Shown: positions 1 through 34,225 of the stretch, piece after piece | How positions within the stretch are numbered: the first letter of the stretch is position 1 | Layout of the letters: the number at the start of each line of letters is the position of its first letter | IMG/VR virus record: IMGVR_UViG_3300032182_000187 | Location: 1-64,000 of that record | Strand: one strand, 5' to 3' | Origin: a virus | DNA: 64,000 bases | Program-made: the position numbers and the translations under genes | The notes under the pieces: generated by a model | What the model saw: the letters and a program-made list of their open reading frames with translations, nothing else | What the model was told of the DNA's origin: nothing | The model's database searches: none

Positions 1-103
1 CATGGGTCACATAAACTTTGGTTGCTAACTCGGCATTCTGACCTTGATCGTCAGCCTCTGTCATTGGGATCTGTGGTCCCAGAAGTTTGATTACTTGTGC
101 CAT
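1..103 (-). CDS. Hypothetical protein, runs off the window edge (MAQVIKLLGPQIPM...)
   Basis: ATG at 103-101 overlaps the upstream stop (TAATG) and the frame is open to the window edge. The N-terminus loosely resembles the upstream ORF. Confidence 0.6.
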   Translation of the reverse strand, partial: MAQVIKLLGPQIPMTEADDQGQNAELATKVYVTH

Positions 104-543
104 TATCCTAGGATTGCTACAGGTGAGACATAGACATTACCAGCGCCAGGAGCGCCATCAACTTGGAATAACGAATAGACTTGTCCGTTGTTTTTTATTT
201 GATTGACTACATAATCTCCATTTTCGTCAACAGGAGTCATTCCAGGATTCTTTTCAAGATATACAGTTTCTCCAACTTCGATAACCATTGATGGATAGTT
301 ATCTGTTTCTACATTCTGGATAACTTCAAAATGAGTTGGTTCACCAGTGGTAGCATCAATAGCTTGAATCTTAGTTCTTCTTGCTACGATACGAGAATCG
401 GTGGCATTTGTAATCTTGACCCAGCGAGCACGATACAGTTCTTTTGTTTTCAAATGAACCGCAGTTGCAAGAGCAACCGAATGATCACCAGTAATTGTGG
501 TTCCATCAACTACCGTTACTTTACCTTGTGGTCTGATGATCAT
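103..543 (-). CDS. Hypothetical protein downstream of gp16
   Basis: 146-aa ORF translationally coupled to gp16 (ATGA overlap). Confidence 0.75.
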   Translation of the reverse strand: MIIRPQGKVTVVDGTTITGDHSVALATAVHLKTKELYRARWVKITNATDSRIVARRTKIQAIDATTGEPTHFEVIQNVETDNYPSMVIEVGETVYLEKNPGMTPVDENGDYVVNQIKNNGQVYSLFQVDGAPGAGNVYVSPVAILG

Positions 544-1762: not shown

Positions 1763-2640
1763 TAGAAACTATCCGTAAAGTTGCCGTATTCGCCAAAGGG
1801 ATTTCTTTCTCCCCAATCGATGAGTTCATCTGCCTCATCTTCTATATAGGCATTTTGATCATATTCACTATTCGTATTCTCAATAGTGGAGTACGTAGCA
1901 ACAGTCCAGACAGCACCACTATCATCACCAGTGATGTTCTCACCTGTTGCGAAAGTACCTGTTCTATTGATGACCTGTAGGATTCTATTGACACTATCCC
2001 AAGACTTGACCTCACCAGTCTCATTAGAGACACTACCAGTAACTGTCTCACCGACAGTAAAGTCTGTAGTGCCACCAACTGCCATGGTGATACCAATAGC
2101 AGAACTGAAGAGAGTTTCAATCTCATCAATCTCATCAACTCCAGTATCGATCTTGTCGTTACCAACCTCGTAGATCTCTGCAGTCATTACATAGAACTGT
2201 AGTTTACCAAACTGGTAGAATGGAGACTCTCGCTCTACGAACTTGATCTCATATAAGTCTTCTGTTAGTGGGAAGTATAATAGATCTCCTTCATTGGGTC
2301 TACCAATTACAGTTAGATCATAACCATCTGAGGTTTGATCCCATCTTCTACTGGAGACAATGAACTTAACTTCATCGGTGATGCGTAGACCAAACTTGGA
2401 AATGAATTCTGACTGATCTCCAAAACCCTGTACGTTCACAAGCAGCATCTCTACTTGGAACTGATTCTCAAACTTAGAGTAAATGATATCGTCTAGAGTG
2501 GTATCTTTGAAGATAGTTCTAGGTAGATAATAGATATCAGATCCAAACAGTTTGATCTGTTCGTCTACAAGGTCTTGTGCAAGGTCTTGCTCTCCCGAGT
2601 AACCTTGATAATATGTTGGAAAATAAGGACTAGTAGGCAT
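1762..2640 (-). CDS. gp14: Neck protein
   Basis: YYLPR, SKFGL, RPNEGDLLYFP and PFYQFGK motifs, C-terminal NPFG; synteny. Confidence 0.93.
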   Translation of the reverse strand: MPTSPYFPTYYQGYSGEQDLAQDLVDEQIKLFGSDIYYLPRTIFKDTTLDDIIYSKFENQFQVEMLLVNVQGFGDQSEFISKFGLRITDEVKFIVSSRRWDQTSDGYDLTVIGRPNEGDLLYFPLTEDLYEIKFVERESPFYQFGKLQFYVMTAEIYEVGNDKIDTGVDEIDEIETLFSSAIGITMAVGGTTDFTVGETVTGSVSNETGEVKSWDSVNRILQVINRTGTFATGENITGDDSGAVWTVATYSTIENTNSEYDQNAYIEDEADELIDWGERNPFGEYGNFTDSF

Positions 2641-2641
2641 T

Positions 2642-3472
2642 TTATCCGATCATATCCATGGGTGGAAGGGTGTATTTGGATGGCATGTCCGCTTCTAATT
2701 CCATGACTTCTTTATTACCATCCTCCCAGATCTGGCGACCATTAAGTGTAATGCCACCAGGGAGTTGAACATTCTGATACTTGATTAAGTTCTGTCCCCA
2801 CTGTCTCTTCATTAGAGCAGTAGTGTATCTCTTGACAAAACTGTCATCATATACTTGAGTAAACTCATCTGGATCAAGTGCTCTGTGGCACTCAATCAAC
2901 AGATAGTTATCTTCTACAATTCTGCTAGGATCAATGTCAACAAACAAACGATCCTGTCGCTTGTTAAATCTAAACTGAACAAGTTGTCCAGTGTTAACTA
3001 CCATGTCGATAGTTTCAAAGTATTGCTTGATCATATAGAAGTTTGTAAGATCAAATCTACCAAAAGCAAATCCTGAAGAGAATGAGAACATATCCATCAG
3101 GAAGTATTGGTTGCTTAGACCAAATAGATCATTGCGAACCCAGTTGGAAGATACACCAAACACTTTAGAAACACCCAGAACATGGTCTGGAATTTCAATA
3201 AAGTTCTTTCTATTCTCCCATGTAGCAGTATCTGGATCAGGAGTTGAAGCAGTTTCGTTAGTCTCGGTAAAACGAGTAACATCCTCTGCTGTGATCTGAT
3301 GCTTCAGATACATTCTTTCTACCCCATCATAATGCCACTCTTGGTAAAATTGAAGAGCGGTGTCAACAATATCATCTACCTGTTCGTCTGCGATATTAAT
3401 CTGCAGCACAGGAGCACCTAACTGCCTCTTGCAATAATCAATTAGTTCTTGGCGTGATGATGGCTTTGCCAT
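2642..3472 (-). CDS. gp13: Neck protein
   Basis: LIDYCKRQLGAPV, KRQWGQNLIKY and LPGGITLNG motifs. Confidence 0.93.
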   Translation of the reverse strand: MAKPSSRQELIDYCKRQLGAPVLQINIADEQVDDIVDTALQFYQEWHYDGVERMYLKHQITAEDVTRFTETNETASTPDPDTATWENRKNFIEIPDHVLGVSKVFGVSSNWVRNDLFGLSNQYFLMDMFSFSSGFAFGRFDLTNFYMIKQYFETIDMVVNTGQLVQFRFNKRQDRLFVDIDPSRIVEDNYLLIECHRALDPDEFTQVYDDSFVKRYTTALMKRQWGQNLIKYQNVQLPGGITLNGRQIWEDGNKEVMELEADMPSKYTLPPMDMIG

Positions 3473-3485
3473 TGATTATCCATAC

Positions 3486-3518
3486 AAAAAATCCCTACCT
3501 GTATTTATCAGGTAGGGA
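3486..3518 (-). terminator. Intrinsic terminator whose loop is a late promoter (ATAAATA)
   Basis: 10-bp stem TCCCTACCTG/CAGGTAGGGA, 7-nt loop at 3502-3508 reading ATAAATA on the minus strand, followed by a T-run. Confidence 0.8.
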
Positions 3519-3525
3519 CTTGTAG

Positions 3526-3711
3526 TTATTCTGCAGGTGCTTCTTCCGATTCCTCTGCTTGCTTTTCTAGGAGTTGAAGAGTCTCTAAACCCCCTTGTAG
3601 TTTGAGTTTATACTCTTTTGCTTTCTCCAAATTTGATTCTAGTTCTGCAATCTGTTGATCTGCTTTGCCTAGTTGCTCTTCAAAATTTGCCTTGAGTTGT
3701 TCAGTGTCCAT
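3526..3711 (-). CDS. Small coiled-coil hypothetical protein
   Basis: 61-aa E/K/L-rich ORF with late promoter TATAAATA upstream. Confidence 0.75.
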   Translation of the reverse strand: MDTEQLKANFEEQLGKADQQIAELESNLEKAKEYKLKLQGGLETLQLLEKQAEESEEAPAE

Positions 3712-3738
3712 GGTTTTAACGAGAAATGATGTACGAAA

Positions 3739-4020
3739 TTATTTATATTGAATGAGAGATTCCATCTTGAGGCAATGAACTCTAACGAGATCCAATGCTT
3801 CTAGTGCTGCTTCTAGTTTATGCTTAGCAATTTTTAATGAATTGAATTCTTGTAGATCAATACGATTACAAGCAGAAGTTTCTTCGTTAATTCTTCTCTC
3901 ACATTCGTTGTATTTGGCAGTGCAATCTTCTAGTTGCCCAGAAAATGTTTCCCAGAGATCATCAAATGTAACCTCTTGTTCTTCTGTAACAGTTTCTTCG
4001 GTGACGGTTTCAGATGTCAT
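3739..4020 (-). CDS. Hypothetical acidic coiled-coil protein
   Basis: 93-aa ORF overlapping the upstream stop; loosely resembles the next small ORF. Confidence 0.65.
   Translation of the reverse strand: MTSETVTEETVTEEQEVTFDDLWETFSGQLEDCTAKYNECERRINEETSACNRIDLQEFNSLKIAKHKLEAALEALDLVRVHCLKMESLIQYK
3740..3747 (-). promoter_or_regulatory. T4-type late promoter TATAAATA
   Basis: Exact consensus 29 nt upstream of ORF 3526-3711. Confidence 0.7.
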
Positions 4021-9476: not shown

Positions 9477-10235
9477 TTATTTAAATTCGTATACTACAAC
9501 GAGACCACCTTTACCATATCCACCCTGGATTGAAGTGTGATAACCAGGAGATCCACCAGCACCAAATGCAGCACTAGCAGTATTATCTAGGGCATAATCA
9601 CCTGCGTTTGGATATCCAGTAGGACCAGATCCTCCAAAAAAAGAATTGCCGCCTGTAGGACCAGCATAATACTGGTGACCTGCCCCACCACCACCATATA
9701 GATTCATATCACCACCAGAACCTACACCACCTACACCACCACAGTGTCTATGATCTTGATTGCCTCCTTGACCACCAGTAGCAGAAAGATAACTTCCGAA
9801 AGAAGTAGTTCCTCCGTTAGATGCAGCATCCGAGTATTGTGTAGAATCTGTATTCCCGTTTCCGATTGTTACGGTTACTGAAGATATTCCAGTAATATCA
9901 ATAAGTCTTTCTGCATATCCACCAGCACCTCCGCCCTCACCAACTCCAGACGCAGATCCTCCGCCACCAACAAGACGAACTAAAATTTTATTTACGCCTG
10001 AATCTGGGGTGTATGTGCCACTACTAGTAAAAGTTACCATTCTGTGTGGACCTACTGCGGTCCACGAAGCAACTCCACCAACACATTTCAAAAATTTTCC
10101 TGCCTGTCCAGAAGTCGATGGGGGCATTGCTGTGCCATCTAAAATCTTTCCATCCAGACTCAAGTTATGACTAGATGGAATTTCGATTGTGGTTCCAGAA
10201 GAAGATTTAATTTCGTTAATTCTTAAAATTGACAT
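9477..10235 (-). CDS. Glycine-rich tail-tip/adhesin-like protein, paralogue 2
   Basis: Same architecture as its neighbours, 252 aa. Confidence 0.78.
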   Translation of the reverse strand: MSILRINEIKSSSGTTIEIPSSHNLSLDGKILDGTAMPPSTSGQAGKFLKCVGGVASWTAVGPHRMVTFTSSGTYTPDSGVNKILVRLVGGGGSASGVGEGGGAGGYAERLIDITGISSVTVTIGNGNTDSTQYSDAASNGGTTSFGSYLSATGGQGGNQDHRHCGGVGGVGSGGDMNLYGGGGAGHQYYAGPTGGNSFFGGSGPTGYPNAGDYALDNTASAAFGAGGSPGYHTSIQGGYGKGGLVVVYEFK

Positions 10236-10994
10236 TTACATATACTCCATGATTACAACAATACCATTTGATCCTTTTGCTCCACCGTGGGATCTTGCCC
10301 ATCCACTAGCACCACCGCATCCAGGAGCAGCATTTTCTTCATTATTAATAGGATATCTTCCTCCATTTGGGTGTCCACCTGGACCACCACCTCCGAAATA
10401 ACTTCCACCCCCTTTACTATTATATCGACCGTGACCTGCACCGCCGCCTCCATAGATAGAAAGCATTCCACCAGATCCTACTCCACCTGGACCTCCAGAG
10501 TGTCTAGCAGCTTGATTAGCACCACTTCCTCCACCAGCAGTCATAAAAGAACCGAAAGAAGTGGTTCCTCCAGTTCCAGCTGCTCCTGCATAAGTAGTAC
10601 CACTACCTCCAGTACCTACAGTAACTGCGACTGTATTAATATTATTATCTTCTAGGTTAATAAAACCTTCACAGTATCCAGCAGCACCACCAGTTTCTGA
10701 ATAACTAGTTCCACCACCGCCACCACCAACAAGTCTAACATAAACAATTTTGGTTCCTGCACTAGGAACGTATTGTCCACTTTGAGTAAAAACAATAATA
10801 TTACCAGCACCATAATCAGAATAAACGAAACCAGTTCCATCTGAATAAACTAGTTTACCATCTTGACCAGAAGTTGACGGCAAAACTTTATTTTTATCCA
10901 GAGCTCTTGAACCAATTTGCAACGAATGTCCTGCAGGAATCAGGACAGTCGTGCCAGTGGATGCTTGGATTTTGTTTACGAATAGTGTACTCAT
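10236..10994 (-). CDS. Glycine-rich tail-tip/adhesin-like protein, paralogue 1
   Basis: Same architecture, 252 aa, directly after the giant fibre gene. Confidence 0.78.
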   Translation of the reverse strand: MSTLFVNKIQASTGTTVLIPAGHSLQIGSRALDKNKVLPSTSGQDGKLVYSDGTGFVYSDYGAGNIIVFTQSGQYVPSAGTKIVYVRLVGGGGGGTSYSETGGAAGYCEGFINLEDNNINTVAVTVGTGGSGTTYAGAAGTGGTTSFGSFMTAGGGSGANQAARHSGGPGGVGSGGMLSIYGGGGAGHGRYNSKGGGSYFGGGGPGGHPNGGRYPINNEENAAPGCGGASGWARSHGGAKGSNGIVVIMEYM

Positions 10995-11000
10995 AGTTCT

Positions 11001-14000
11001 TTACACAACAGACCAGGCAGAACCTGCCGAGATAGTAATTGTTACGTTATTATTTATAGTCAATGGTCCTGCACTTACAGCATTGGTGTTTGATGGAATA
11101 GTGACATCTTCTGAGATAATAGTTCTGTTAGTTTTAAAGATGCCATAACTATCAATATACTGACGATCTCCATTAACATAGAAGACTTCAGTATTTGCAC
11201 CACTGGTAAAGGAAGCACCATTGATACCGAAACTTCCAGAAACCTGTAAACCGTAGTCTGGGTTGCCAGTAAATCCATTTGCAGTAGGATCTGCATTGAT
11301 CCAAACTTTAGATGCTCTAAAGATATCAAGTTCATTTTGTGCTTCAGTCCAACGTGAAGTAACGAACTCAGCGTTGTTCTGGAATAGTTGACCATTGAAG
11401 TTAACATCACCTTGAATGTTCAGTTGATAATTTCTTAGTGTGTTATCTTCAGGATCTGTTCCACTGAATGCAGTTGTATTGATTGCAACTCTTCTAGTGT
11501 TACCCTTGATTGCGATAGCAGGAGTTGTGCCCCAGTCAACGCCACCATTGGAATCAGAAGGTGTGATATCAAAGACATCATCTGCAAGTAACTGATTACC
11601 AATTCTGAAGTTTCTGAATCCAGTGGATCCTTTAAATTCGATTGGAGCACCATTGTTGTTAGATGCATCATTAATAAGAAGTTTAGTGGAGGTATAAATA
11701 TTGCCTGCCACATGTAGTTTATAATCCGTTGCGGTAGTTCCAGTCGTTCCTAAGAACAGGGTGCCAGTGCTATTGAGTTGCATTCTAACTGCACCCGCAT
11801 TGGAACCAGATCCAGCAGAAGAGTTAACTGTAGGAACAGATGTTCCATCAAACGAAACTGTGAAATAACCAACATTACTATCGTCTGCACCAATTGCCCA
11901 GAACTGATCGTCGGTTCTGTCGCTAAATCCAATCTGTGGAGATCCAGCAGTATAACCCAACTGAATTCTTCCATGGTTTGAAGTCTGCTCTTCAAAGATT
12001 GCCCAGACATCGTTACCTTCAATAGATCCATCATTAGGAGTGATAATGTGCAAGAGAGACTGTGGATTGTTATGTCCAATACCAACACGTCTGTCCGTAG
12101 AATCAACATACAGAACGTCAGTTGCAACAGAAAGATCGGTAGCGATTGTGACATTGCTTAGGAAGTCTGCTCTACCAGAAATGCTCAGTGCCTGGGTAGT
12201 TGCTAATACACCAGTAATGGTCAAAGGACCAGACATAGTATCACCAGACTTCAGTACGTTCAGCGAAGCAGAACCTACCAGTTCAGCACCAGCATCTAGA
12301 GTGATAGTGCCAGCACCGAATCCACCGTTAGCATCACGAATAACACCTGTGTTTGCTACGCTTCCAGTATTGAAAGTAATGTTACCAGTGTTCCAGACTG
12401 TGTTGCCGTTGATGGAGAAACCATCAGCGTTGACAACCTGTACGTCTAACGTACCGCTGGAGTCTGTGCTATTACCACCAGTTGCGATAATTGCAGTGTT
12501 ATAGTTTGCTGCTGCTTGTTCAGAAGATCTGAAGTAGATACCTGGGGAAGAAGGAATGCCATCCTTTCTACCAAGTCTGAGGTTTGCAGTACCACCATCA
12601 CTCTCAAGTCTTGCAACTTGGAAAGTGCCTGTGGAGTCAAGGGTGAAATCTTGGAAAGCAACACGGTTGTTTGCTTCACCAATAGTCTCAGCACCATCGA
12701 AAGTACCAGACTGTAGTACACCGTAGATGATTGTGAAATCGTTGAAGTTATCAGTTTCGTCGTTAGTTACGATCTGAGTAATCTGAATTTCACCAACACT
12801 CTGTGCAAGGTTATTGTAGAGGTTAATTGGGTTGCCAGGTAAGAATGGCGAAGAAGTTAGAATTGCACCAGAGATGTAGATTCTATATCTTGCGTTACCA
12901 GAGATCGAAAGGATATCTAAACTGTCCTGAATCGACTTAGGAGTGAAGAAGTCTGGCAGTCTATTGTCGGACAACTCACCGAAGTTCATGTTGTATGCGT
13001 TCTGATACCAGATACCTTGACGGTTGTCCAGTTTGTCAGCATCAAGGTCAGTACCAGGACCATCGTTGAGTGAGGTCCAGACCTTACCCCAAGAACCCCA
13101 GTCATCCAGAGTGGTTCCAGAACCACGGAGCCACATGTTGTCATTATCAGTAAATGCTAACTGTCTAGCACCACCACCAGTAGCATCAAATCCAGAACCG
13201 AAGTTTCTGATAGTCATTACTAGGTGTCTTTGACCACCGTCGAGGAGACCATCAGCAGTGTTGTTTCTAGTATCAGCAATAATACCAGAAGAGAACAGGT
13301 TAGGAGATGGAGAAGACGTTGGGTTAGTTACACCAGTAACGAGTCTGAGAGTGTTACCAGACTGACCCGAGATGCTGATGTTGTATGTACCAGACATACG
13401 ATCTGTTGGTACAGTACCTGCGTTTAAGTTAGAAGCATCTAGGTAGTAAGCACCCTGCACACCGTCTAGAAGGTCAGCATCAAGACCACTATCAGCACCA
13501 GTCTTCAGTGTGATAGAACCGTTTCCAGATTCTCCAATCTCGAACTGAGACTTTCTAAATCTCGAAACACCGATTGTGCCATATTCATCAGCAGAAATTG
13601 TCTGGTTAGTAGCACGAAGAACGTCAACCGAAACGTTAGCAAACTGCTTATTAACTGTACTAATCTTCGCCTGGAGAACGAGACCAACACCAGATCCAAT
13701 CTCTGCAGGCAGAGAGGTGATGTTAAAGTCTGCATTGTAGTTAAGACCACCATCAGTTACGGTGAGTTCAGTAACCTCTCCACCAGAAACAATGACGTTT
13801 GCTTTGAGTCCTGTACCAGTACCACCACTTAGAGTCTGGTCAAAGTATTGACCATCAGTGAAACTAGAACCACCCTCAGCAACAACAATGTTGTCTACGA
13901 ATGTACCTTGAGTGTAAGAAGACTCAAATGTAATTGGAGAAGCGCCACGCTCAAATTCAATAATAGTTCCTGCGGGAATTGTTGCAATCAGTGGGTTGGA

Positions 14001-17000
14001 GATAGATACAGTTGTCAAACCGCCAGAGGTAAGAACACCATCAATGTTAGTGTTTTCCTGAATACCAACGACATTTGCTACTACTTCGTGACCAAGTAGA
14101 GTGTCGGAATTGGTAGTAAAGATTAACTGCTGACCACCAATACTTGCATCACTGTATAGTCTAGCAAAGTATCTTGTCTCAGCACCCTTAATAGACTGAA
14201 CTGCCAGAGCATAAGACTGGTCACCACGTAAGAATGTGAAGGAGTTTGCAGCGTTGGAGTTAAGTGCCAAACGAGCAGTCTCAATAACACCCGAAGTAAT
14301 GTCAGATGCTGCAATCTGGTTAGAGGATAGAGATACCCAGTTATTGCTATTGAAAGAAGAGGTGTTAACAACTCTTGTGACATTAACTACTGTTGGTGGA
14401 AGATCACTAGAGTTGATGGTGTCTGCCTCAGTTAACTTGAGTCTGTTTACAATGTCACCATAAAGTCTGTTTTCAATTAGAGCACTACCAGTTGCTTGTG
14501 TACCAGAACCAGATGGTGCAGAGAAGGTAACTGTTGGTTGTACAGTGTATCCCTTACCACCAATAAGACCATTAAACTCTTGGATTTCAACAACAACGAC
14601 CTGACCGTTAGCAATTTCTGCTGTAGCAGATGCTTGGATGTTGCCAGCAGTTGGTTGACCACCAGTAATTGTAATAACAGGTGGGGAAGTGTATCCAGAA
14701 CCAGGATCTGTGATGATGATCTGGAATACAACACCAGTTCTGTATTCAGTTGCTTGAATCTGACCGTTAGACTGACTACCAGTAAAGATATCACCTAGGG
14801 TGAATGATAGGGTAGGATCAACGGGGAAGGATACAAACAGACTATCTAAGTCATTGTTAAGAATGAACGATGTCGATGTATCCTGTTGGATTGCGATGTC
14901 ACCTGCAAGTGCGCCTTCAATGGAGGTTCTTGCTGTAGCATCGGGAACAGTGAATACACTGAAAGGACGTAGAGCAGGGATCTGGTCAACAGAAATCTTA
15001 CCAGAGTCGGTAAGTTCGACCAGTGCTCTAGGAACAGCGTTTGTAGAATATGGTTTGTTGATGTAAGGACCAAGGTTATTTGTAATGTAGTCCTTAACTG
15101 CTTTCTGAGTAGGTAGTTTGGAGTCAGTGGAGTTAGCGCCACCCAGTGTGTTGGATGCGTCGAAACCAGTAACAACAACGTCGCCACCCTTCAGTTTCAA
15201 GAATTCAACTTCCGAGATCGTAACCGTACCAGTGAAGGTGATGTTACCAGTTCTGTTCTCGATTCTTGCGAAAACACCAACCTTGAAGTCACCAAGTTCG
15301 TCAGTACCAGAGACGTATACACGACCATAGCGTTCAGAAACTTGCTCGTTTGCTTCAACTTTAACACCACCGTTTTCAGGCAAGGAGTTGTAGTTAGTAC
15401 CAGAACCTGCGAATTCCCAAGTGTGGGAGGAGGAGTTAACGATAGAAGGTCTGTGTAGTCTGATTGTCTCACCATTCAGACTGGTTGTGGATACTGCTTG
15501 CTGGGTAGCAATATTCTTAAATTCAGCACCGCCACCAGAACCAGAGTCAATTGTAAGTTGAGCAGAGAAAGGAGGACCAACTGTTACAGCATCAACTGCA
15601 TCAATGAAGTATTCAATCTCAGCACTTACGTTTTCAAAACCATCAATCTTGACGATATAGTGCTCAAGAGGTTCTCTTCCAAGACCATCAACGGTAAAGA
15701 TTGTTCTACCAGTTGGAGTAGCAGATACGTTCGTGATAGTACCAACGTCAAAGATGTATGCCTCTTCTCTAAATCCAATAGCACGTAGAGCGAAGATACC
15801 GAAGTTGGTAGCAGAGTTAGTGATAGATGCATAACCACCAGACTCAGAAAGAACACCATCAGCACAGAAGATAACGAAGACCGAAACCAACTGAGTGTAA
15901 CCATCGTTGATAACCTTATAACCAATACCACCGAAGGAAACAATCGTGAATGCCGCAGCAACCATCGACTTACCCTGGTTGGGGAAAGTTGCGGAACCGT
16001 CAAGTTCTAGACCTGCGAAAGGACAGTTAGGTTGTTTGACTCTAGAACCGTCAATTAGAGCACCGCCACCACCTAGGAAGGAGATGATTGAAGAGTTCTG
16101 GGTATATGGAGATGCTTCAATGATTGGGAAATCATCGAAATCAGAACGTGGTGTAAGAACAGTTCCGTTAGCATCGTAGATAGTTACGTCTGGATATGTG
16201 TAAAGATCAACCGTATCTAGAAGTGTGCCATAGTTCTTAACTGTACCACCAGGAGCAATATCTCCACGAAGAATATCGTTGAGCAGTGTGAAGGAGGTTG
16301 TAATGGCAGACTCAATACCTGCACAGTATGGAGTTCCTAGTTGATCAACTAGAATGCTGCTATCTGTGAACAGAGGAATTGGTGAATGAACTGGAGTATA
16401 TACTGCACCCGCACCACCTAAGGTCGCCCAGTTCCTCATAGCGAGGATACAAAGATCTCTTACCTGCTCGAAAGCATAGATGGTTTCATCTCTCTGTGCT
16501 TCGGGAATACCAGTTAGAATAGTTCCAGAATAATATTCCTCAGCGTTCGTAACAATAGCGGCATTACCACCGAGAATAATATCTCTAATCAATGCAGTGA
16601 TAATATAGTTAATATCTCTTCTGCATTTTCTTTGATTAATATCATTCAGAAGAAGGGATGGATACTGCGCTTCAGTCTTGCCTAGTGCTTCATCCGCAAT
16701 GAAGTCTCTGTTTCTAGCAATCAGGTAACCTGCATCCAACTTAGTACCAGATGCGTCATTAGTTAGAACATCGACAAACAGATAGGACAGAACATTGATT
16801 GCTGACTTAACGTTTGCACAATGCTCGACTCCAGGTTGAGTTAGATCTTCTAGAATCGTTGGGTCGATGTACTTGGGTAGAGAAGTATACTGTGCGGTAT
16901 AAACGGGATCCGTTGGAAGACCTGTGCCAGTTCTCCACTTACGCATTGCAAAGATTGCTAGTTCTCTAGCATACTCAATTGCACGTACAGTTTGAATAAT

Positions 17001-20000
17001 TTCGTTATCGATGTAGGTAGCAATTTGAGTGCCTTGAATGTACTTCTTAGCAGCGTCAATAACATTGTAGTTGCTTCCATACTCAAGGTCACGGATGACA
17101 GCATTAAGGAAGTGTCTAATGTCTCTACGACACTTGTTGTCACTAACTGGAATATTGAAACTTGGATATGTCTTCTGTGTAACTACGTTATCAACAGTAC
17201 ACTCAAGAAGAATGTCAGCAAGTTGTACGATACTATCATTTGCTAGTCCTGGGATAGCACTATCAGTTGTGATAGTAGCAGCACCAGTTACAGTATTGTC
17301 ATAAACAAAGCTGGTGATATTATAAGTAGATCCACCAAATGTTACTGTTCCGCCACTTACGTAGTCATGAACAAATCTCGATGGTCCGAGGAATAGTTTG
17401 AATTCGTCGCCACCAACAGACAAAGCATTAGTTGCTGCTCTTACAAATGTGTGAGCAGACTGTGGTAAATGTTTGACTGCTTCTGCAGTAGCACTCACAA
17501 ATGTGTGAGTAGATTGTGGTTCAAACTTAATTGCTCCAGGTTGAGCACTTACGAAGGTGTGCGTAGAACCCGATGCAGTGCCTGCGTCACCGACGTTGAT
17601 AGTAAATGTGCCAGTTTGCCTTCTAATAGCGTCTGTAGCGATGCTGACGAGGGTGTGAGCGCCTGTGTAATCAGAACCACCAATGTTGATTCTAAATCCA
17701 TCCTGAGTTACATTGTCAATCTCAAAGTAACGGTTGCTAGCATAGTCGTAGTTAGTTCTTGGGTAAGACTTGTTAACCGTATTGCCATCTAGAACACAGG
17801 AATAGGTGAGGGCATTATCCTCGACCATAATGTAATCACCATCAGCAAATCCATGACTTGCTAAGGTGAACTGGATAGTTCCTGCAGCAGCGTCATAAAC
17901 TGCATCTGTAGGAGTGTGAGATGTGAAACCAACGTTAGTGATTTCAATGGACTTACCAGAGTAAGGATCTTGTCCTGCACGAGGATATGTGTGGACTTGG
18001 GTATTGCCGTCTTGATCGCAAGTGAATGCGAAAGAATTGTCCTCAAGAACAACATGCTTACCAACTTGTAAACCATGCTGCCCTACAGTGACAGTCATGT
18101 CACCAGTTGAGGCATTGTATGCAACGTCTGTTGGTTGGAAATATTTGTTAGCGGGAGAAGCACCAACATTAACTGTGATGGTGTTCTCGGAAATCGCTGT
18201 GATGGGGATAGAACGCTGTGAGAAGAGATCGTGTCCAGGTCTTGGATAGGTCTTGGCAGCGTCATTGCCATCCATGGTGCAGGTAAAGGTCAACGAGTTG
18301 TCATCGATGACAATACCTTCTCCTACATCTAGTTGGTGAGTTCCAATGGTAAGAACTAAGTTACCTGTTGCAGGATCATAAGTTGCATTAGTTGGAGTGT
18401 ACAGTTGGTTAGGACCAGAAGCACCAACATTAAGTGTAAACGTATTAGTGGTTACTGATTCAATAGGAATTGCTTTGCCAGTAGCATAGTGATGAGATTG
18501 TGGTGCAGTGTGCTCGGTATTGTTACCGTCCATTGCACAAGTGAAGACAATGCTGTCCTCTTCAATCTTTACACCATCACCAACAGATAACCCGTGGTTT
18601 GCAACAGTGAATGTAGAAAGACCAGTCGCAGGATCATAAGTTACATCAGTAGGAGTGAACTGCTGTGTTGGTGTACCATCTACATCATATACAGCAAAGT
18701 ATTCTTTCTTAAATTCATCATTGACTCTACCAACAACTTCATCTGCAATAAAGTCGATATTGTTTCTAATTTGTAGAGAAGCATCTTGGAATCTTCTTGC
18801 TACAGGTGTCGCCATATCAAATTTGTTTGGCGAGTTCAGCAAGGAAAGAGTTACGCCCTTAGATGCCGAAGAAACCTTCGCTAGGTTGCCAGGTTCAAAA
18901 TTGGAGTCTGTGATGACCGAAGTCTTTTTGGGAATAACAAAACGTCTCGAACGACCGTCAGCATCTTCGAGAACTTTGTAAATTCTCTGCTTACCATTCA
19001 AGAATGATAAGTCAGGACCAGAAGTAGGCAGACCTTCAATTAGAATTTCTTGACCTTCTTTTAGTTCGTGGACGTTCTGTCTACCAATCAGTGCGTTGGT
19101 GTAGAAGACGATACCACCAAGATCCTCTGGACCAGCGCCGTCCCATCCATATTGGAATCCACCAGTAGCAACTTCGTCTGTGCCCTGTAGAGAGAAGTCA
19201 ATTCTGGAAATAGGATACTCTACTTCTCCTGGTTCATTGGTGAATACAACTTCACCCTCTGCTCTAATGGACTGAATGTCAGTAGAAACGAACTCATATT
19301 CTGCATCCAGATAATCCAGTGCGTTTGCTCTTGCAGATACAAATGTATGTGGATAGTTGCCACCAGAGATAACAGCGTTTGCTAGAGCACTATCAAATGC
19401 ATGTTCATACTGATCGTCAGGTCCAGATGCACCTACGTTAATTGTAATTGTTGTAGAAGTTACTTCTAGAATTTCTACCGCAGTGTCGTATGCTGGGTCA
19501 GTTGTTCTTGGATAGAAGTGGACACTGGAATAACCATCTTGAGAGCAGGTAAAACCAAGAGACTCTGTTCTTAACTTAATAGAAGTTCCTACAGTTAGCG
19601 TATGAGTGCCAATTGTTAGAACAGCAACACCAGATGCAGGGTCATAGGTAGCATAAGATACCTGATGATTGACAAGTTGAGAGTCGCCAACATCAAGTTC
19701 AAATGTATTAGTTGTTGCTGCAGAAATAGTTAGGAACTGGTTTGCAATTGGGTCGGAAGATCTTGGATAGTATTTGACATTGGTGTTTCCATCCATGTCA
19801 CATGTGAATCCAAGAGATTCGATGTTAATACGAATTTTATCACCATTAGCAAATCCATGGTTGGGAACCGTAAACTCGGAGATACCAGTTTGTGGATCGT
19901 AGGTTACGTTTGTTGGTGTATATGGAGTGGTAATGAAGTATTCAAATGTTTCACCAGAGATGAATGAACCACTGAGAATTTCAATGTTAGCAGTACCTGA

Positions 20001-21470
20001 GATGTAAGCTTGTACACCTGTAACTGTGTCAAATACTACTTCATTGACTAATGCAGTTGCACCAGTGTTAACACCTCTTAGAGATAGACCAGCGGTAAGC
20101 TGGTTTAAACCAGTGTTTGTCTGGAAGGTAACTCTCTCACGATTTGGACCAAAGATCTGGTGACCAACTGGGAAACTTAATCCAAAGTCTCCATTAGCAG
20201 ATGCATCAACTTCAATTCTTTGCTTGTCATCGAAGACCATAGCAAAGTCCCACGTTGCAACAGAGTCGCCGTTGGAATCAATTTGGTCACGATAGGTAAC
20301 ACCGATGACATAGTTCTTGTCACCAAATTTGAAAATATGCTTTCTTGGGTTTGCTGGGCGGATGATAACCAGACGCAGGTTGTCACCAACAACCGATGCA
20401 TCGGGAGGAATGGAAATTGGGTTATCTTCTAGATAATCACCGCCAGCAACGATAATTGTTTCTTTGACGCCAGGTGTTTTCCATGCTTCCTGACATGCTT
20501 TTTTAATTGTTCTTACAGGAGCAACAGCAGAACGACCATCGTTGTCGTCACTACCAATAGTCTGCGAAACGTAGATACGACCACCAACGTCGTTCTGTGC
20601 TAGGTTCAGAACATATTCTGTAGTTGCAATCTTGTCAGACTTATCACCCAGGAGAGGTGTGATAGATCTTGGATAGAGACCTGAGTCACCAGTCTCTTCG
20701 TAGTAAGGTTGAGTATCGTCAACAATACGGAAACCAATATGCTTCAGTTGTGCGGTTCCGTTCGCCTCAATACCATCAATGTGTGTAGGAGCAGAGGTTC
20801 CAGTAGTACCAGTTTCAATAACCTGATATACATTACCACCAAAATATCTAAAAGTATTCTTCTGAACAATAACGTTAGGTGCCCAGAGAGTACCACTGTT
20901 GTTAATATAAGTTTTTAAGTTTGGTGCTCTAAAGTTTGCGTCTGGAGTAACGAAGTTATCGATATCCAGGTTTAGAATTCTCGCCGTGTCTGAAATGATC
21001 GACGTAGATGTTCTAATAGCACCGTTAATGTCAAGTTCAAAGTCAACAGTATCTAGGAATGCGATACCAACAGCACCAGTACCATTACCACCACTAATTT
21101 GTACGACTGGAGCAGTTTCGTATCCATCACCAGGATCATCAACAATAATCGCACTAACTTGACCATTGAAAATTGCCGCCGATGCCAATGCTTGACGACC
21201 ACCCTCCAAAGTTGGAGCACTAAGTTCAACTGTAGGGACTAAGGTGTACCCACTACCACCCTGTCCATCGGGAATATCAATTCTTTCAACTCTTTTACCA
21301 GTTCTATTAATACCTACCCTAGGTAGACCTGTCTCAGCGTCTAACTGTGCTCTAAAGATCTCCCTCTCTGTTGCCCCAGTTCCAGCACGAATTACATAAG
21401 TTTGGTCTGCGATAACCGATGGGTTGACCGCCCTTAAAATTTCCTTATCAGAATTAAACTGAAAACTCAT
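11001..21470 (-). CDS. Giant multidomain tail fibre / virion structural protein (3489 aa)
   Basis: GxGY..P repeats, beta-helix cap (IYVSQTIGSDDNDG..PVRTIKKA), ~95-aa TYDPxTG repeats, LDADLLDG fibre motifs and C-terminal SAGPLTI..TISAGSAWSVV; late promoter upstream. Confidence 0.85.
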   Translation of the reverse strand: MSFQFNSDKEILRAVNPSVIADQTYVIRAGTGATEREIFRAQLDAETGLPRVGINRTGKRVERIDIPDGQGGSGYTLVPTVELSAPTLEGGRQALASAAIFNGQVSAIIVDDPGDGYETAPVVQISGGNGTGAVGIAFLDTVDFELDINGAIRTSTSIISDTARILNLDIDNFVTPDANFRAPNLKTYINNSGTLWAPNVIVQKNTFRYFGGNVYQVIETGTTGTSAPTHIDGIEANGTAQLKHIGFRIVDDTQPYYEETGDSGLYPRSITPLLGDKSDKIATTEYVLNLAQNDVGGRIYVSQTIGSDDNDGRSAVAPVRTIKKACQEAWKTPGVKETIIVAGGDYLEDNPISIPPDASVVGDNLRLVIIRPANPRKHIFKFGDKNYVIGVTYRDQIDSNGDSVATWDFAMVFDDKQRIEVDASANGDFGLSFPVGHQIFGPNRERVTFQTNTGLNQLTAGLSLRGVNTGATALVNEVVFDTVTGVQAYISGTANIEILSGSFISGETFEYFITTPYTPTNVTYDPQTGISEFTVPNHGFANGDKIRINIESLGFTCDMDGNTNVKYYPRSSDPIANQFLTISAATTNTFELDVGDSQLVNHQVSYATYDPASGVAVLTIGTHTLTVGTSIKLRTESLGFTCSQDGYSSVHFYPRTTDPAYDTAVEILEVTSTTITINVGASGPDDQYEHAFDSALANAVISGGNYPHTFVSARANALDYLDAEYEFVSTDIQSIRAEGEVVFTNEPGEVEYPISRIDFSLQGTDEVATGGFQYGWDGAGPEDLGGIVFYTNALIGRQNVHELKEGQEILIEGLPTSGPDLSFLNGKQRIYKVLEDADGRSRRFVIPKKTSVITDSNFEPGNLAKVSSASKGVTLSLLNSPNKFDMATPVARRFQDASLQIRNNIDFIADEVVGRVNDEFKKEYFAVYDVDGTPTQQFTPTDVTYDPATGLSTFTVANHGLSVGDGVKIEEDSIVFTCAMDGNNTEHTAPQSHHYATGKAIPIESVTTNTFTLNVGASGPNQLYTPTNATYDPATGNLVLTIGTHQLDVGEGIVIDDNSLTFTCTMDGNDAAKTYPRPGHDLFSQRSIPITAISENTITVNVGASPANKYFQPTDVAYNASTGDMTVTVGQHGLQVGKHVVLEDNSFAFTCDQDGNTQVHTYPRAGQDPYSGKSIEITNVGFTSHTPTDAVYDAAAGTIQFTLASHGFADGDYIMVEDNALTYSCVLDGNTVNKSYPRTNYDYASNRYFEIDNVTQDGFRINIGGSDYTGAHTLVSIATDAIRRQTGTFTINVGDAGTASGSTHTFVSAQPGAIKFEPQSTHTFVSATAEAVKHLPQSAHTFVRAATNALSVGGDEFKLFLGPSRFVHDYVSGGTVTFGGSTYNITSFVYDNTVTGAATITTDSAIPGLANDSIVQLADILLECTVDNVVTQKTYPSFNIPVSDNKCRRDIRHFLNAVIRDLEYGSNYNVIDAAKKYIQGTQIATYIDNEIIQTVRAIEYARELAIFAMRKWRTGTGLPTDPVYTAQYTSLPKYIDPTILEDLTQPGVEHCANVKSAINVLSYLFVDVLTNDASGTKLDAGYLIARNRDFIADEALGKTEAQYPSLLLNDINQRKCRRDINYIITALIRDIILGGNAAIVTNAEEYYSGTILTGIPEAQRDETIYAFEQVRDLCILAMRNWATLGGAGAVYTPVHSPIPLFTDSSILVDQLGTPYCAGIESAITTSFTLLNDILRGDIAPGGTVKNYGTLLDTVDLYTYPDVTIYDANGTVLTPRSDFDDFPIIEASPYTQNSSIISFLGGGGALIDGSRVKQPNCPFAGLELDGSATFPNQGKSMVAAAFTIVSFGGIGYKVINDGYTQLVSVFVIFCADGVLSESGGYASITNSATNFGIFALRAIGFREEAYIFDVGTITNVSATPTGRTIFTVDGLGREPLEHYIVKIDGFENVSAEIEYFIDAVDAVTVGPPFSAQLTIDSGSGGGAEFKNIATQQAVSTTSLNGETIRLHRPSIVNSSSHTWEFAGSGTNYNSLPENGGVKVEANEQVSERYGRVYVSGTDELGDFKVGVFARIENRTGNITFTGTVTISEVEFLKLKGGDVVVTGFDASNTLGGANSTDSKLPTQKAVKDYITNNLGPYINKPYSTNAVPRALVELTDSGKISVDQIPALRPFSVFTVPDATARTSIEGALAGDIAIQQDTSTSFILNNDLDSLFVSFPVDPTLSFTLGDIFTGSQSNGQIQATEYRTGVVFQIIITDPGSGYTSPPVITITGGQPTAGNIQASATAEIANGQVVVVEIQEFNGLIGGKGYTVQPTVTFSAPSGSGTQATGSALIENRLYGDIVNRLKLTEADTINSSDLPPTVVNVTRVVNTSSFNSNNWVSLSSNQIAASDITSGVIETARLALNSNAANSFTFLRGDQSYALAVQSIKGAETRYFARLYSDASIGGQQLIFTTNSDTLLGHEVVANVVGIQENTNIDGVLTSGGLTTVSISNPLIATIPAGTIIEFERGASPITFESSYTQGTFVDNIVVAEGGSSFTDGQYFDQTLSGGTGTGLKANVIVSGGEVTELTVTDGGLNYNADFNITSLPAEIGSGVGLVLQAKISTVNKQFANVSVDVLRATNQTISADEYGTIGVSRFRKSQFEIGESGNGSITLKTGADSGLDADLLDGVQGAYYLDASNLNAGTVPTDRMSGTYNISISGQSGNTLRLVTGVTNPTSSPSPNLFSSGIIADTRNNTADGLLDGGQRHLVMTIRNFGSGFDATGGGARQLAFTDNDNMWLRGSGTTLDDWGSWGKVWTSLNDGPGTDLDADKLDNRQGIWYQNAYNMNFGELSDNRLPDFFTPKSIQDSLDILSISGNARYRIYISGAILTSSPFLPGNPINLYNNLAQSVGEIQITQIVTNDETDNFNDFTIIYGVLQSGTFDGAETIGEANNRVAFQDFTLDSTGTFQVARLESDGGTANLRLGRKDGIPSSPGIYFRSSEQAAANYNTAIIATGGNSTDSSGTLDVQVVNADGFSINGNTVWNTGNITFNTGSVANTGVIRDANGGFGAGTITLDAGAELVGSASLNVLKSGDTMSGPLTITGVLATTQALSISGRADFLSNVTIATDLSVATDVLYVDSTDRRVGIGHNNPQSLLHIITPNDGSIEGNDVWAIFEEQTSNHGRIQLGYTAGSPQIGFSDRTDDQFWAIGADDSNVGYFTVSFDGTSVPTVNSSAGSGSNAGAVRMQLNSTGTLFLGTTGTTATDYKLHVAGNIYTSTKLLINDASNNNGAPIEFKGSTGFRNFRIGNQLLADDVFDITPSDSNGGVDWGTTPAIAIKGNTRRVAINTTAFSGTDPEDNTLRNYQLNIQGDVNFNGQLFQNNAEFVTSRWTEAQNELDIFRASKVWINADPTANGFTGNPDYGLQVSGSFGINGASFTSGANTEVFYVNGDRQYIDSYGIFKTNRTIISEDVTIPSNTNAVSAGPLTINNNVTITISAGSAWSVV

Positions 21471-34121: not shown

Positions 34122-34160
34122 CGTAAATGAGTCTCTCTAGTTGATCCTGTTTCCCTCTAT

Positions 34161-34167
34161 TATTTAG
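34161..34167 (-). promoter_or_regulatory. Late promoter variant CTAAATA
   Basis: Just downstream of the gp8 terminator and upstream of the VrlC-like gene. Confidence 0.6.
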
Positions 34168-34174
34168 CAGGGAT

Positions 34175-34203
34175 AAAAAAAATCCCCCGATTTCTCGGGG
34201 GAT
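34175..34203 (-). terminator. Rho-independent terminator after gp8
   Basis: Stem ATCCCCCGA/TCGGGGGAT, GAAA loop on the minus strand and a long T tail. Confidence 0.9.
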
Positions 34204-34225
34204 CTGAAAGATATGTTTGAGGAGA

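What the first reader, a model, noticed from the sequence alone, without database searches (positions are those of the whole stretch)
17420..19925. Nested ('matryoshka') domain architecture in the giant fibre: repeats open and close like parentheses
Seen: a ~95-aa repeat begins xPTxxTYDPxTG...HG...FTCxxDG...YPR...TINVG, and its expected last segment (HTFVSAxxxA) is displaced. Cluster 1 (19925-19315) has 2 openers followed by 2 stacked closers (HAFDSALANA, HTFVSARANA). Cluster 2 (18660-17420) has 4 openers followed by 4 closers (HTLVSIATDA, HTFVSAQPGA, HTFVSATAEA, HTFVRAATNA). The fourth unit interrupts the third between IEITNV and TFTINVG. Cluster 2 itself sits inside the first helical domain, which appears to interrupt the beta-helix region. 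Inference: each domain is inserted into a loop of the previous one, producing an out-and-back stalk that branches from the fibre and could be lengthened by internal duplication.
Basis: partly seen in the sequence, partly recalled or inferred. Interest (0 to 1): 0.7.

Follow-up and report, generated by a model that had tools for sequence, protein, structure and literature searches.

The report
Self-nested barrel domains in cyanophage fibre
A giant tail-fibre-type protein of a marine cyanobacterial virus carries two side arms built from one small beta-barrel domain plugged into copies of itself, two and four deep, a rare protein design previously described mainly for the cyanobacterial RNA polymerase.

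Summary
The 3489-aa ORF (window 11001..21470, minus strand) belongs to a T4-like cyanomyovirus and is 97% identical to Synechococcus phage Sf-FR1 over the 847 aa queried. It holds six ~100-aa units. Their last strand (HTFVSA type) is displaced, giving 2 openers + 2 closers and 4 openers + 4 closers.

AlphaFold2 models are confident: pLDDT 91.5 and pTM 0.83 for the second cluster, 88.1 and 0.67 for the first. Single-barrel PDB domains align to discontinuous model ranges that pair each opener with its closer in reverse order.

- **Unit form:** relatives carry the same unit contiguous, in tandem, or nested to depth 6.
- **Cassette:** 59 of 66 related ORFs contain the exact 4-unit cassette.
- **Empty sites:** one collinear orthologue (P0272) lacks both clusters precisely.
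- **Host domain:** cluster 2 sits between two helices of a helical domain. Interruption of the beta-helix was not tested.
- **Function (inferred):** dispensable, stiff out-and-back side arms, possibly adhesive.
- **Closest precedent:** the recursively nested Si3 insertion of cyanobacterial RNA polymerase.

I found no description of such nesting for phage fibres. This scan has noted the same design before in other cyanophage genomes.

The parts
11001..21470 (-). ORF of 3489 aa (P0001), a giant virion structural / tail-fibre-type protein
   Evidence: PHROG 5342 'tail fiber protein', E = 0. The orthologue SfFR1_80, 'structural protein', has the same length in Synechococcus phage Sf-FR1.
19299..19895 (-). 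Insert 1 (aa 526-724): cluster 1, absent from orthologue P0272
   Evidence: BLASTP blocks of P0272 against P0001 skip aa 526-724. At this site the spacing is 16 aa in P0251, 66-68 aa in L006/L008-type relatives, and 219 aa here.
19686..19922 (-). Unit 1.1 opener (aa 517-595), outer barrel of cluster 1
   Evidence: The outer barrel corresponds to model range 10..220 in 3 of 50 VIA rows.
19374..19667 (-). Unit 1.2 (aa 602-699), a complete inner barrel including its closer at aa 690-699
   Evidence: 44 of 50 VIA rows align to model residues 93-99..198-200.
19320..19349 (-). Closer of unit 1.1 (aa 708-717)
   Evidence: It forms strand E204-209 in the model and lies inside the 10..220 alignments.
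17181..18710 (-). Insert 2 (aa 921-1430): cluster 2 plus an ~80-aa beta tail, absent from orthologue P0272
18423..18659 (-). Unit 2.1 opener (aa 938-1016), outermost barrel of cluster 2
   Evidence: 17 of 50 VIA rows span model residues 1-6..423-427 with only 67-89 residues aligned.
18162..18401 (-). Unit 2.2 opener (aa 1024-1103)
   Evidence: 26 of 50 VIA rows span model residues 89-95..405-406.
17931..18140 (-). Unit 2.3 opener, first part only (aa 1111-1180), cut before its TFTINVG strand
   Evidence: One VIA row spans 175..388.
17628..17918 (-). Unit 2.4 (aa 1185-1281), a contiguous complete innermost barrel
   Evidence: VIA rows 1 and 46 span model residues 252..355.
17532..17609 (-). Return of unit 2.3: the TFTINVG strand and its closer (aa 1288-1313)
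17478..17507 (-). Closer of unit 2.2 (aa 1322-1331)
17424..17453 (-). Closer of unit 2.1 (aa 1340-1349)
17145..17324 (-). Weak seventh opener-like stretch (aa 1383-1442) with no closer of its own; unexplained
   Evidence: Opener HMM score 25.7 bits. It lies inside insert 2.
18711..18788 (-). First helix of helical domain 1 (about aa 895-920), upstream of insert 2
16716..17180 (-). Remainder of helical domain 1 (aa 1431-1585), downstream of insert 2
   Evidence: 35% identical over 157 aa to helical domain 2, E = 1e-25. It is contiguous with the first helix in P0251/P0272.
16218..16676 (-). Helical domain 2 (aa 1599-1751), an uninterrupted paralogue of helical domain 1

Best explanation
The two clusters are recursive self-insertions of one ~100-residue beta-barrel domain. 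A complete unit has three parts. An opener of about 70 residues carries the YDxxTG, FTCxxDG and YPR motifs. A TFTINVG strand follows, and a final HTFVSA strand closes the barrel.

In cluster 1, a complete unit sits between the TINVG strand and the last strand of another unit (depth 2). In cluster 2, unit 2 sits in that same loop of unit 1, and unit 3 in that loop of unit 2. Unit 4 sits one loop earlier in unit 3 (depth 4). The chain therefore runs outward through four unfinished barrels, completes the innermost one, and on the way back gives each outer barrel its missing strand.

Each cluster starts and ends at one point of a host domain. Cluster 1 sits in a beta-hairpin. Cluster 2 sits between the first and second helix of a helical domain. 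Both are dispensable accessory arms, because a collinear orthologue lacks them.

Inferred, not shown:
- Every junction between barrels is crossed twice by the chain, so the arm is stiff.
- Barrels must finish folding from the inside outward.
- The arms serve as spacers or weak adhesion modules on the virion fibre, as other accessory domains of phage structural proteins do.
For: **Sequence.** Six openers and six closers occur in the orders ABABCC and ABABAABCBCCC (A = opener, B = TFTINVG strand, C = closer).

**Structure, cluster 2.** The AF2 model of aa 931-1357 used a 38-row alignment built from 37 of the 73 loci. It has mean pLDDT 91.5 and pTM 0.83, and the closers score pLDDT 90-96. In the Foldseek-independent search of 48,161 PDB chains, single barrels of 63-89 aligned residues map to four model ranges. 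These are 252..355 (2 rows), 175..388 (1 row), 89-95..405-406 (26 rows) and 1-6..423-427 (17 rows). The remaining 4 of 50 rows are odd. These end points are the reverse-order closers.

**Structure, cluster 1.** The AF2 model of aa 505-730 used 11 alignment rows and has pLDDT 88.1 and pTM 0.67. The inner unit at 93-99..198-200 takes 44 of 50 rows, the outer unit at 10-11..219-220 takes 3, and 3 are other. Independently predicted cyanophage fragments in BFVD superpose on the whole two-barrel model, with TM 0.82-0.88 and rmsd 1.9-2.9.

**Relatives.**
- The unit also occurs contiguous and in tandem, for example ten ABC units in P0007. The 28 contiguous units share invariant Tyr, Gly, Cys, Pro, Gly and the closer His.
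- 59 of 66 unique related ORFs hold the exact 4-unit cassette, 94 cassettes in all.
- L070 hand-parses as 8 units, 6 deep. Its cluster-1-like closers are pushed behind an inserted cassette.
- P0102 has four first halves followed by four second halves, split at a different loop.
- In a strict set of 81 proteins, opener and closer counts correlate at r = 0.967 and are equal in 55.

**Insertion status.** P0272 (2720 aa) is collinear with the whole protein at 55-62% identity. It lacks exactly aa 526-724 and aa 921-1430 and has no opener hit at E <= 10.
Against: - There is no experimental structure. Coordinates of the models were not available, so strand pairing is read from the first and last aligned residues of structural alignments, not from contacts.
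- Both models are monomers, and the fibre is probably a trimer.
- Automated counts differ in 26 of 81 proteins (20 by one, 6 by more). In the window-like set the 6 of 42 mismatches trace to the weak seventh opener and to divergent closers. I saw this by eye for L070 and L002. I did not check most of the 20 of 35 mismatches among distant representatives one by one.
- The seventh opener-like stretch (aa 1383-1442) has no closer.
- No unit is hypervariable. Mean pairwise identity is 0.60-0.68 for all four units, which gives no support to a receptor-binding tip.
- The cassette is inherited as a block, so its many copies are not independent evidence.
Confidence: 0.8

Rival explanations
1. Strand exchange in the trimer. 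The openers are unfinished barrels that are completed by closers of a neighbouring chain of the fibre. The nesting would then be between chains rather than within one chain.
For: Phage fibres are commonly trimers with interwoven chains (established knowledge, recalled). Only monomer models were made, so this was not tested.
Against: The monomer models close every barrel within one chain at high confidence (pLDDT 88-91.5). Contiguous units need no partner chain. Each cluster is a complete excursion from one point of a host domain and can be absent as a whole, which fits a self-contained side arm.
Confidence: 0.08
2. Beads and a tail. The openers are tandem truncated domains that fold without a last strand. 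The stacked HTFVSA segments form a separate short beta repeat of their own.
For: In the linear sequence the closers form a regular 18-residue repeat (aa 1304, 1322, 1340). Two of them are preceded by a conserved PQS motif.
Against: Structural alignments of single barrels include the distant closers. The closer follows directly as the last strand in contiguous units, and its His is invariant there. Unit 4 with its own closer sits inside unit 3. The numbers match in 2+2, 4+4 and 8+8 (L070) arrangements.
Confidence: 0.05
3. Prediction artefact. The region is real repeat sequence, but the confident nested fold is an AlphaFold bias for closing barrels, and the true arrangement is different or partly disordered.
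For: All structural evidence here is AlphaFold-based. The alignment for cluster 1 had only 11 rows.
Against: The nesting was predicted from sequence grammar before any fold was made. It holds in relatives with different insertion loops and is matched by precise presence/absence of whole clusters.
Confidence: 0.04

Closest known systems
Si3 (SI3) insertion in the trigger loop of cyanobacterial RNA polymerase beta' (RpoC2)
   Same: One small beta domain family is inserted recursively into copies of itself, so the chain runs out and back. PMC13114784 (abstract and passages read) reports eight domains in a 6-level recursive insertion in Prochlorococcus RpoC2. It presents this six-level nesting as its example of complex organisation among 48,551 insertion events.
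   Different: - The fold differs. Si3 uses hybrid-motif (sandwich-barrel) domains, whereas here the barrel resembles the E1 FCCH domain, the endosialidase barrel and flavin-reductase-type barrels.
- The carrier here is a phage virion protein, not a polymerase.
- The arms here are dispensable and vary in copy number between close relatives.
- At least five different loops of the unit serve as insertion sites in the family.
- The depth in this window is 4 barrels plus at least one host domain.
Beta-barrel domain of phage endosialidases (Pfam End_beta_barrel PF12195; phi92 endosialidase 4hiz_A residues 255-338)
   Same: It is a small accessory barrel in a phage tail spike. It is among the best structural matches: Z 7.7, rmsd 2.4 over 80 residues and Z 7.6, rmsd 2.4 over 80 residues. 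That it is inserted into a loop of the host domain is recalled, not taken from a call.
   Different: It is a single copy, not nested. The sequence match is far below threshold, with 3 of 28 units matching and the best at E 0.017, 15.5 bits against a cut-off of 35.
First catalytic cysteine half-domain (FCCH) of ubiquitin-activating enzyme E1 (Pfam E1_FCCH PF16190; 4p22_B, 9mc4_A, 2v31)
   Same: It is the top structural match, with Z 7.7-8.0, rmsd 2.4-2.5 and 75-76 aligned residues. It is itself a domain inserted into another domain (recalled). The nearest named ESM Atlas cluster is a viral E1_FCCH-annotated one, score 0.92.
   Different: It is not nested and not repeated. Sequence matches are sub-threshold, with 10 of 28 units matching and the best at 17.2 bits against a cut-off of 29.5. 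Z near 8 is within the range the tool calls common.
T4 tail sheath protein gp18, with domains nested one inside the next
   Same: A phage tail protein with successive domain-in-domain insertion. This is recalled. It was also named as closest known in earlier notes of this scan. It was not tested here.
   Different: The nested domains of gp18 are unlike each other. The nesting is fixed rather than variable, and there is no repeat grammar.
Accessory Ig-like and similar decoration domains on phage structural proteins
   Same: Small, dispensable beta domains of variable number are added to virion proteins and are thought to give weak surface adhesion (recalled general knowledge).
   Different: Those domains are strung in tandem or at the termini. 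Here the same end is reached by nesting, which lets a multi-domain arm hang from one loop.

Membership tests
Recursive (nested) same-family domain insertion, as in Si3 | A domain is discontinuous in sequence, with its parts separated by another complete domain | tested here: met
   Single barrels align to model ranges 1-6..423-427, 89-95..405-406 and 175..388 with only 63-89 residues aligned, and to 10..220.
Recursive (nested) same-family domain insertion, as in Si3 | Host and guest belong to the same domain family | tested here: met
   The six units align with each other and are 34-49% identical on the five complete opener parts. All six hit one opener HMM at 80-106 bits.
Recursive (nested) same-family domain insertion, as in Si3 | Recursion over more than one level | tested here: met
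   Depth is 2 in cluster 1 and 4 in cluster 2. Depth is 6 in relative L070, by sequence parse only.
Recursive (nested) same-family domain insertion, as in Si3 | Shown by an experimental structure | not testable with these tools
   A profile of 28 units finds no solved relative (best E 0.44).
Hybrid-motif / sandwich-barrel domains of RNA polymerase Si3 | Same fold as the Si3 units | tested here: inconclusive
   No RNA polymerase chain is among the 50 listed matches of either model. The tool states that a family not listed is not excluded.
Pfam E1_FCCH (PF16190) | Score at or above the curated cut-off (29.5 bits) | tested here: not met
   10 of 28 units match at E <= 10. The best is E 0.0053, 17.2 bits.
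Pfam End_beta_barrel (PF12195) | Score at or above the curated cut-off (35 bits) | tested here: not met
   3 of 28 units match. The best is E 0.017, 15.5 bits.
Pfam DUF7243 (PF23891) | Score at or above the curated cut-off (27 bits) | tested here: inconclusive
   17 of 28 units match weakly, best E 0.0003. The three units whose scores I saw had 13.3-14.8 bits. One alignment covers most of the unit (residues 13-95 against profile 72-146 of 177).
Six-stranded flavin-reductase / elongation-factor-domain-2 type barrels | Structural superposition over most of the domain | tested here: inconclusive
   Many matches have Z 5-6.5, rmsd 2.3-4.2 and 62-85 aligned residues. These Z values are within the range the tool calls common.
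Phage tail fibre protein | Match to a fibre family and location in the tail module | tested here: met
   PHROG 5342 'tail fiber protein', E = 0, over aa 1692-3489. The neighbours in Sf-FR1 are annotated as virion structural and tail fibre proteins. Presence in the virion was not tested.

The most novel reading that the evidence does not exclude
This barrel is a self-hosting domain family. Any copy can be host or guest at several loops, so cyanophage fibre genes build branched, bracket-like trees of barrels. Relatives reach 6 deep here, and deeper nests are claimed in earlier unchecked notes of this scan. That would make these the deepest same-domain nests known.

The invariant Cys of the opener and the invariant His of the returning strand may form a metal or other clamp that locks each barrel shut. 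The arms would be stiff probes that can be added or removed in whole modules and that tune how the virion meets the host surface.
Probability: 0.3. Interest if true: 0.8.

Novelty: new variant of a known kind. Interest (0 to 1): 0.62.

Why it matters
Domains are usually strung like beads, and deep nesting of one domain inside copies of itself is rare. The 2026 survey I read presents the six-level cyanobacterial RNA polymerase Si3 region as its example of deep nesting.

Here the same principle appears in a different fold and in a virion protein, with natural variants:
- No arm at all (P0272).
- Single, tandem and 2-deep forms.
- A 4-deep cassette present in one to six copies.
- A 6-deep nest (L070).

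This gives a natural series for studying three things. The first is how a protein folds when outer domains cannot close until inner ones are made. The second is how double-stranded junctions stiffen a multi-domain arm. The third is how phage fibres gain and lose modules.

It also warns annotators. These giant proteins have no Pfam match, and repeat counting by linear tandem logic misreads them.

Tried and rejected
- **Foldseek against the PDB** with the four-barrel model gave only arrays of fibronectin-type domains at TM about 0.1, which is meaningless.
- **Pfam** on the whole protein found 0 families at E <= 0.1.
- **First regex count** of openers and closers in relatives was too crude and looked unbalanced. 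I replaced it with an HMM and scoring matrices.
- **First retraining of the closer matrix** drifted onto the HxYPR motif of the openers. I redid it with the openers masked.
- **First 'complete' filter** let through loci cut inside a nest.
- **Whole-string parsing** succeeded in only 28 of 66, 13 of 80 and 17 of 150 sequences. The failures in the first set trace to cut ends, stray single hits and missed divergent motifs, so I do not use that figure as a test.
- **Regex survey of occupancy** at the helical-domain site found only 5 sites, too few to use.
- **Search for a relative with adjacent beta-helix halves** returned only an internal repeat, aa 56-134 against aa 2244-2327. The claim about the beta-helix stays open.
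- **Per-unit conservation** gave no sign of a variable tip.
- **DNA repeats** in the region are only 35-45 nt remnants at 61-82% identity. The units are therefore old, and no recent duplication is seen in this window.
- **Paper searches** for nested insertion in phage fibres found nothing relevant. One search returned 0 papers, and searches returned no relevant titles. Supplementary files were not consulted.
- **Notes on this genome:** none exist in the scan.
Full report
**What is there.** The finding lies in one ORF, window 11001..21470 on the minus strand, 3489 aa. A tblastn of aa 511-1357 against phage genomes matches 331 records, all Synechococcus, Prochlorococcus or marine cyanophages. 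The best is Synechococcus phage Sf-FR1 at 97.4% identity. In that record the orthologue is a 'structural protein' of the same length. It is flanked by a 'cadherin domain-containing protein', 'virion structural protein' genes and two small 'tail fiber protein' genes. Pfam finds nothing in the protein. PHROGs places the C-terminal half in a 'tail fiber protein' family. The window is therefore part of a T4-like cyanomyovirus, and the gene encodes a giant virion fibre-type protein. Its presence in the virion rests on annotation only.

**Observation.** The six openers align over about 80 residues and are 34-49% identical on the five complete opener parts. Unit 4 (aa 1185-1281) is contiguous, with its own closer. 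It lies between the IEITNV strand and the TFTINVG strand of unit 3. An opener HMM finds no other copy in the six-frame translation of the window, except one weak stretch at aa 1383-1442 (25.7 bits).

**The unit is one domain of about 100 residues.** In relatives the same unit occurs uninterrupted, with the closer directly after the TINVG strand. I collected 86 distinct contiguous units from the first 73 loci and thinned them to 28 at 80% identity. In the alignment the two L001 rows were replaced by the window's own two contiguous units. The invariant positions are a Tyr and a Gly of the first hairpin, the Cys of FTC, a Pro, the Gly of NVG and the His of the closer. A profile of these 28 units finds 709 cluster representatives at E <= 0.001 among 1.84 billion proteins, 215 of them at E <= 1e-30. 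It finds no solved structure (best E 0.44).

**Structure predictions.**
- *Cluster 2.* I aligned aa 931-1357 with 37 homologous segments. These came from 37 of the 73 loci; I dropped duplicates and segments whose match ran past the cluster. AlphaFold2 gives mean pLDDT 91.5 and pTM 0.83, an all-beta model, with the closers at pLDDT 90-96.
In the search that aligns the model to 48,161 PDB chains, compact single barrels (63-89 aligned residues, rmsd 2.3-4.2 in 46 of the 50 rows) fall into four classes of model range.
  - 252..355: 2 rows, unit 4.
  - 175..388: 1 row, unit 3.
  - 89-95..405-406: 26 rows, unit 2.
  - 1-6..423-427: 17 rows, unit 1.
  - The other 4 rows are three two-barrel riboflavin-synthase-type matches at rmsd above 10 and one spanning 49..405.
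- *What it shows.* The ends 355, 388, 405 and 423-427 are the ends of closers 1 to 4 in model numbering. The first opener is therefore finished by the last closer, and so on inward.
- *Strand pattern.* Strands 244-255 and 352-362 run without a break from unit 3 into unit 4 and back. Short strands flank the other junctions. This fits two-stranded junctions.
- *Cluster 1.* The model of aa 505-730 used 11 alignment rows and gives pLDDT 88.1 and pTM 0.67. 44 of 50 rows align to 93-99..198-200 (the inner unit with the first closer). 3 rows align to 10-11..219-220 with 79-84 residues (the outer unit with the second closer). 3 rows are other.
- *Independent predictions.* In the BFVD library, fragments of Synechococcus phage S-SSM7 and others superpose on the whole two-barrel model at TM 0.82-0.88.

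**Relatives.** I labelled the opener A, the TFTINVG strand B and the closer C.
- *Cassette.* 59 of 66 unique related ORFs hold the exact string ABABAABCBCCC, 94 cassettes in all. One representative carries six. The cassette is inherited as a block, so these are not independent cases.
- *Other arrangements.*
  - Tandem uninterrupted units, for example P0007 with ten.
  - ABABCC pairs in other proteins, such as P0115, P0130, P0148, P0102, L097, L098 and L102.
  - L101 with two guests in one host, ABAABCBABCCC.
  - P0102 with four first halves, cut just after the Cys strand, followed by four second halves.
  - P0003 and P0009 with guests after the YPR loop.
  - L070, which I parsed by hand. It has eight units between the two helices of the helical domain. 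One unit is split early by a two-unit guest, and a chain of five more sits in its last loop, giving depth 6. There are eight closers, one of them weak.
- *Closers stay outermost.* In L070 the closers that resemble the window's cluster 1 lie behind the cassette's closers, and the opener that best resembles unit 1.2 lies in front of the cassette. Nesting predicts exactly this.
- *Counts.* I pooled 282 unique sequences. The strict set of 81 keeps only proteins with at least 500 residues beyond the last opener and before the first closer. In it, counts of units and closers are equal in 55, differ by one in 20 and by more in 6, with r = 0.967. In the window-like group 36 of 42 are equal. The six exceptions have one extra opener, traced to the weak seventh stretch or to a divergent closer. 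Among distant representatives only 15 of 35 are equal. The 12-residue closer matrix was trained on close relatives, and I checked only a few of these cases by eye. This part of the test is supportive but not clean.

**The clusters are insertions.** P0272 (2720 aa) came from the same 90% cluster as P0251, which was found with the region upstream of cluster 1.
- It is collinear with the whole protein in three blocks: 1-523 with 1-525 (62%), 522-700 with 725-920 (55%), and 696-2720 with 1431-3489 (57%).
- It has no opener hit at E <= 10.
- It therefore lacks exactly aa 526-724 and aa 921-1430.
- At the first site a 16-residue turn joins two strands that flank cluster 1 here. In the cluster 1 model those flanks are long strands at residues 4-13 and 214-224. 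Other relatives carry 66-68 residues at this site.
- At the second site the first helix runs straight into the CKRDI helix.
- Helical domain 1 downstream of the insert (aa 1431-1585) is 35% identical to the uninterrupted helical domain 2, E = 1e-25.
- P0102 and P0130 carry an ABABCC pair at the equivalent place of their helical domains.

Whether the helical region in turn interrupts the beta-helix could not be tested.

**Fold and family.** The best structural matches are listed below. These Z values are in the range the tool calls common.
- The FCCH domain of ubiquitin-activating enzyme, Z 7.7-8.0.
- A head-to-tail interface protein of phage FCWL1, Z 7.2-8.0.
- The barrel of phage phi92 endosialidase, Z 7.6-7.7.
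- Many flavin-reductase and elongation-factor-type barrels, Z 5-6.5.
- Parts of phage lambda, N4, Mystique and crAss001 structural proteins, and the P22 coat I-domain.

Sequence hints point the same way but are far below threshold. DUF7243 matches 17 of 28 units, E1_FCCH 10 of 28 and End_beta_barrel 3 of 28. The nearest named ESM Atlas cluster is a viral E1_FCCH-annotated one. I file the unit under no curated family.

**History.** The units within the window are old, with only 35-45 nt DNA remnants at 61-82% identity. In other phages whole cassettes stand side by side at 73-83% identity. Recent growth is therefore by tandem copying of the finished 4-unit nest, not by deepening it. The four units are about equally conserved among 38 homologues, with mean pairwise identity 0.60, 0.65, 0.68 and 0.67 from outer to inner.

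**How it most likely works.**
- *Shown by prediction and comparison:* two self-contained arms, each leaving and re-entering the host protein at one point. They are built of barrels closed in reverse order, and the protein can do without them.
- *Inferred:* the chain crosses each junction twice, which should make the arm stiff, and the high pTM agrees. Outer barrels can close only after the inner ones are made.
- *Speculative:* the arms act as spacers or weak adhesion modules on the fibre, by analogy with accessory domains of other phage proteins and with the endosialidase barrel. The invariant Cys and closer His may lock each barrel.

**Comparison with what is known.** The nearest described case is the Si3 insertion of cyanobacterial RNA polymerase. 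PMC13114784 (abstract and passages read) describes it as eight domains in a 6-level recursive insertion and uses this six-level nesting as its example of complex organisation among 48,551 insertion events. The T4 sheath protein is a nested but mixed-domain case (recalled). My paper searches found no account of nested barrels in phage fibres.

The scan's own notebook lists at least eight earlier notes on other cyanophage genomes that describe the same design, some claiming depths of 8-10. They are unchecked AI notes. The one on a 3,428-residue fibre with four nested barrels inside further host domains seems to describe an orthologue, and it agrees with what I find.

**Verdict.** The function and the outer layers of the nest remain open. 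This is a new variant of a known but rare kind of architecture.

Noticed in passing
window 17145-17324 (aa 1383-1442): A weak seventh opener-like stretch (25.7 bits) sits just after cluster 2. It has the Tyr-Asp/Gly hairpin and a Cys strand but no TINVG strand or closer. It belongs to the 510-residue insert that orthologue P0272 lacks. In some relatives (L006, L007, L008, L013) it scores as a full opener.
   Followed up: partly
P0272 / P0251 (relatives), sites equivalent to window 19299-19895 and 17181-18710: A collinear orthologue lacks both barrel arms. Its 16-residue turn at the first site still resembles the first strand of an opener (PNVVTYE against PTNVTYD). The empty site may therefore be a secondary deletion rather than the ancestral state.
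   Followed up: partly
L070:1793-4354 and L071:1462-4029: Eight barrel units parse as a branched nest six deep between the two helices of the helical domain. A cluster-1-like pair wraps the 4-unit cassette. This is a sequence parse only and was not folded.
   Followed up: partly
P0102, residues about 3320-3760: Four first halves of the unit, each ending just after the Cys strand, are followed by four second halves. This is a 4-deep nest split at a different loop from the one used in the window. The same protein also has an uninterrupted helical domain next to one that carries an ABABCC pair.
   Followed up: partly
window about 21068-21302 (aa 56-134) and about 14490-14738 (aa 2244-2327): An internal repeat of about 80 residues links the N-terminal region to a later part of the same protein, with 32-61% identity in alignments of relatives. 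The later copy overlaps the PHROG 460 'head closure Hc2' match.
   Followed up: no
window 9477-10994: Two adjacent ORFs of exactly 252 aa each lie just downstream of the giant gene. In Sf-FR1 the equivalent genes are annotated 'tail fiber protein', followed by a third ORF of similar size. This looks like a small tandem family.
   Followed up: no
L154 (Sf-FR1 record), downstream of the fibre module: The closest named phage carries genes annotated as tryptophan halogenase, Fe2OG dioxygenase, DNA endonuclease V and ferrochelatase right after the fibre genes. I did not check whether the window has them.
   Followed up: no
window 34001-36000: G+C rises to 0.486 in this 2-kb bin, against 0.34-0.45 elsewhere in the window.
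   Followed up: no
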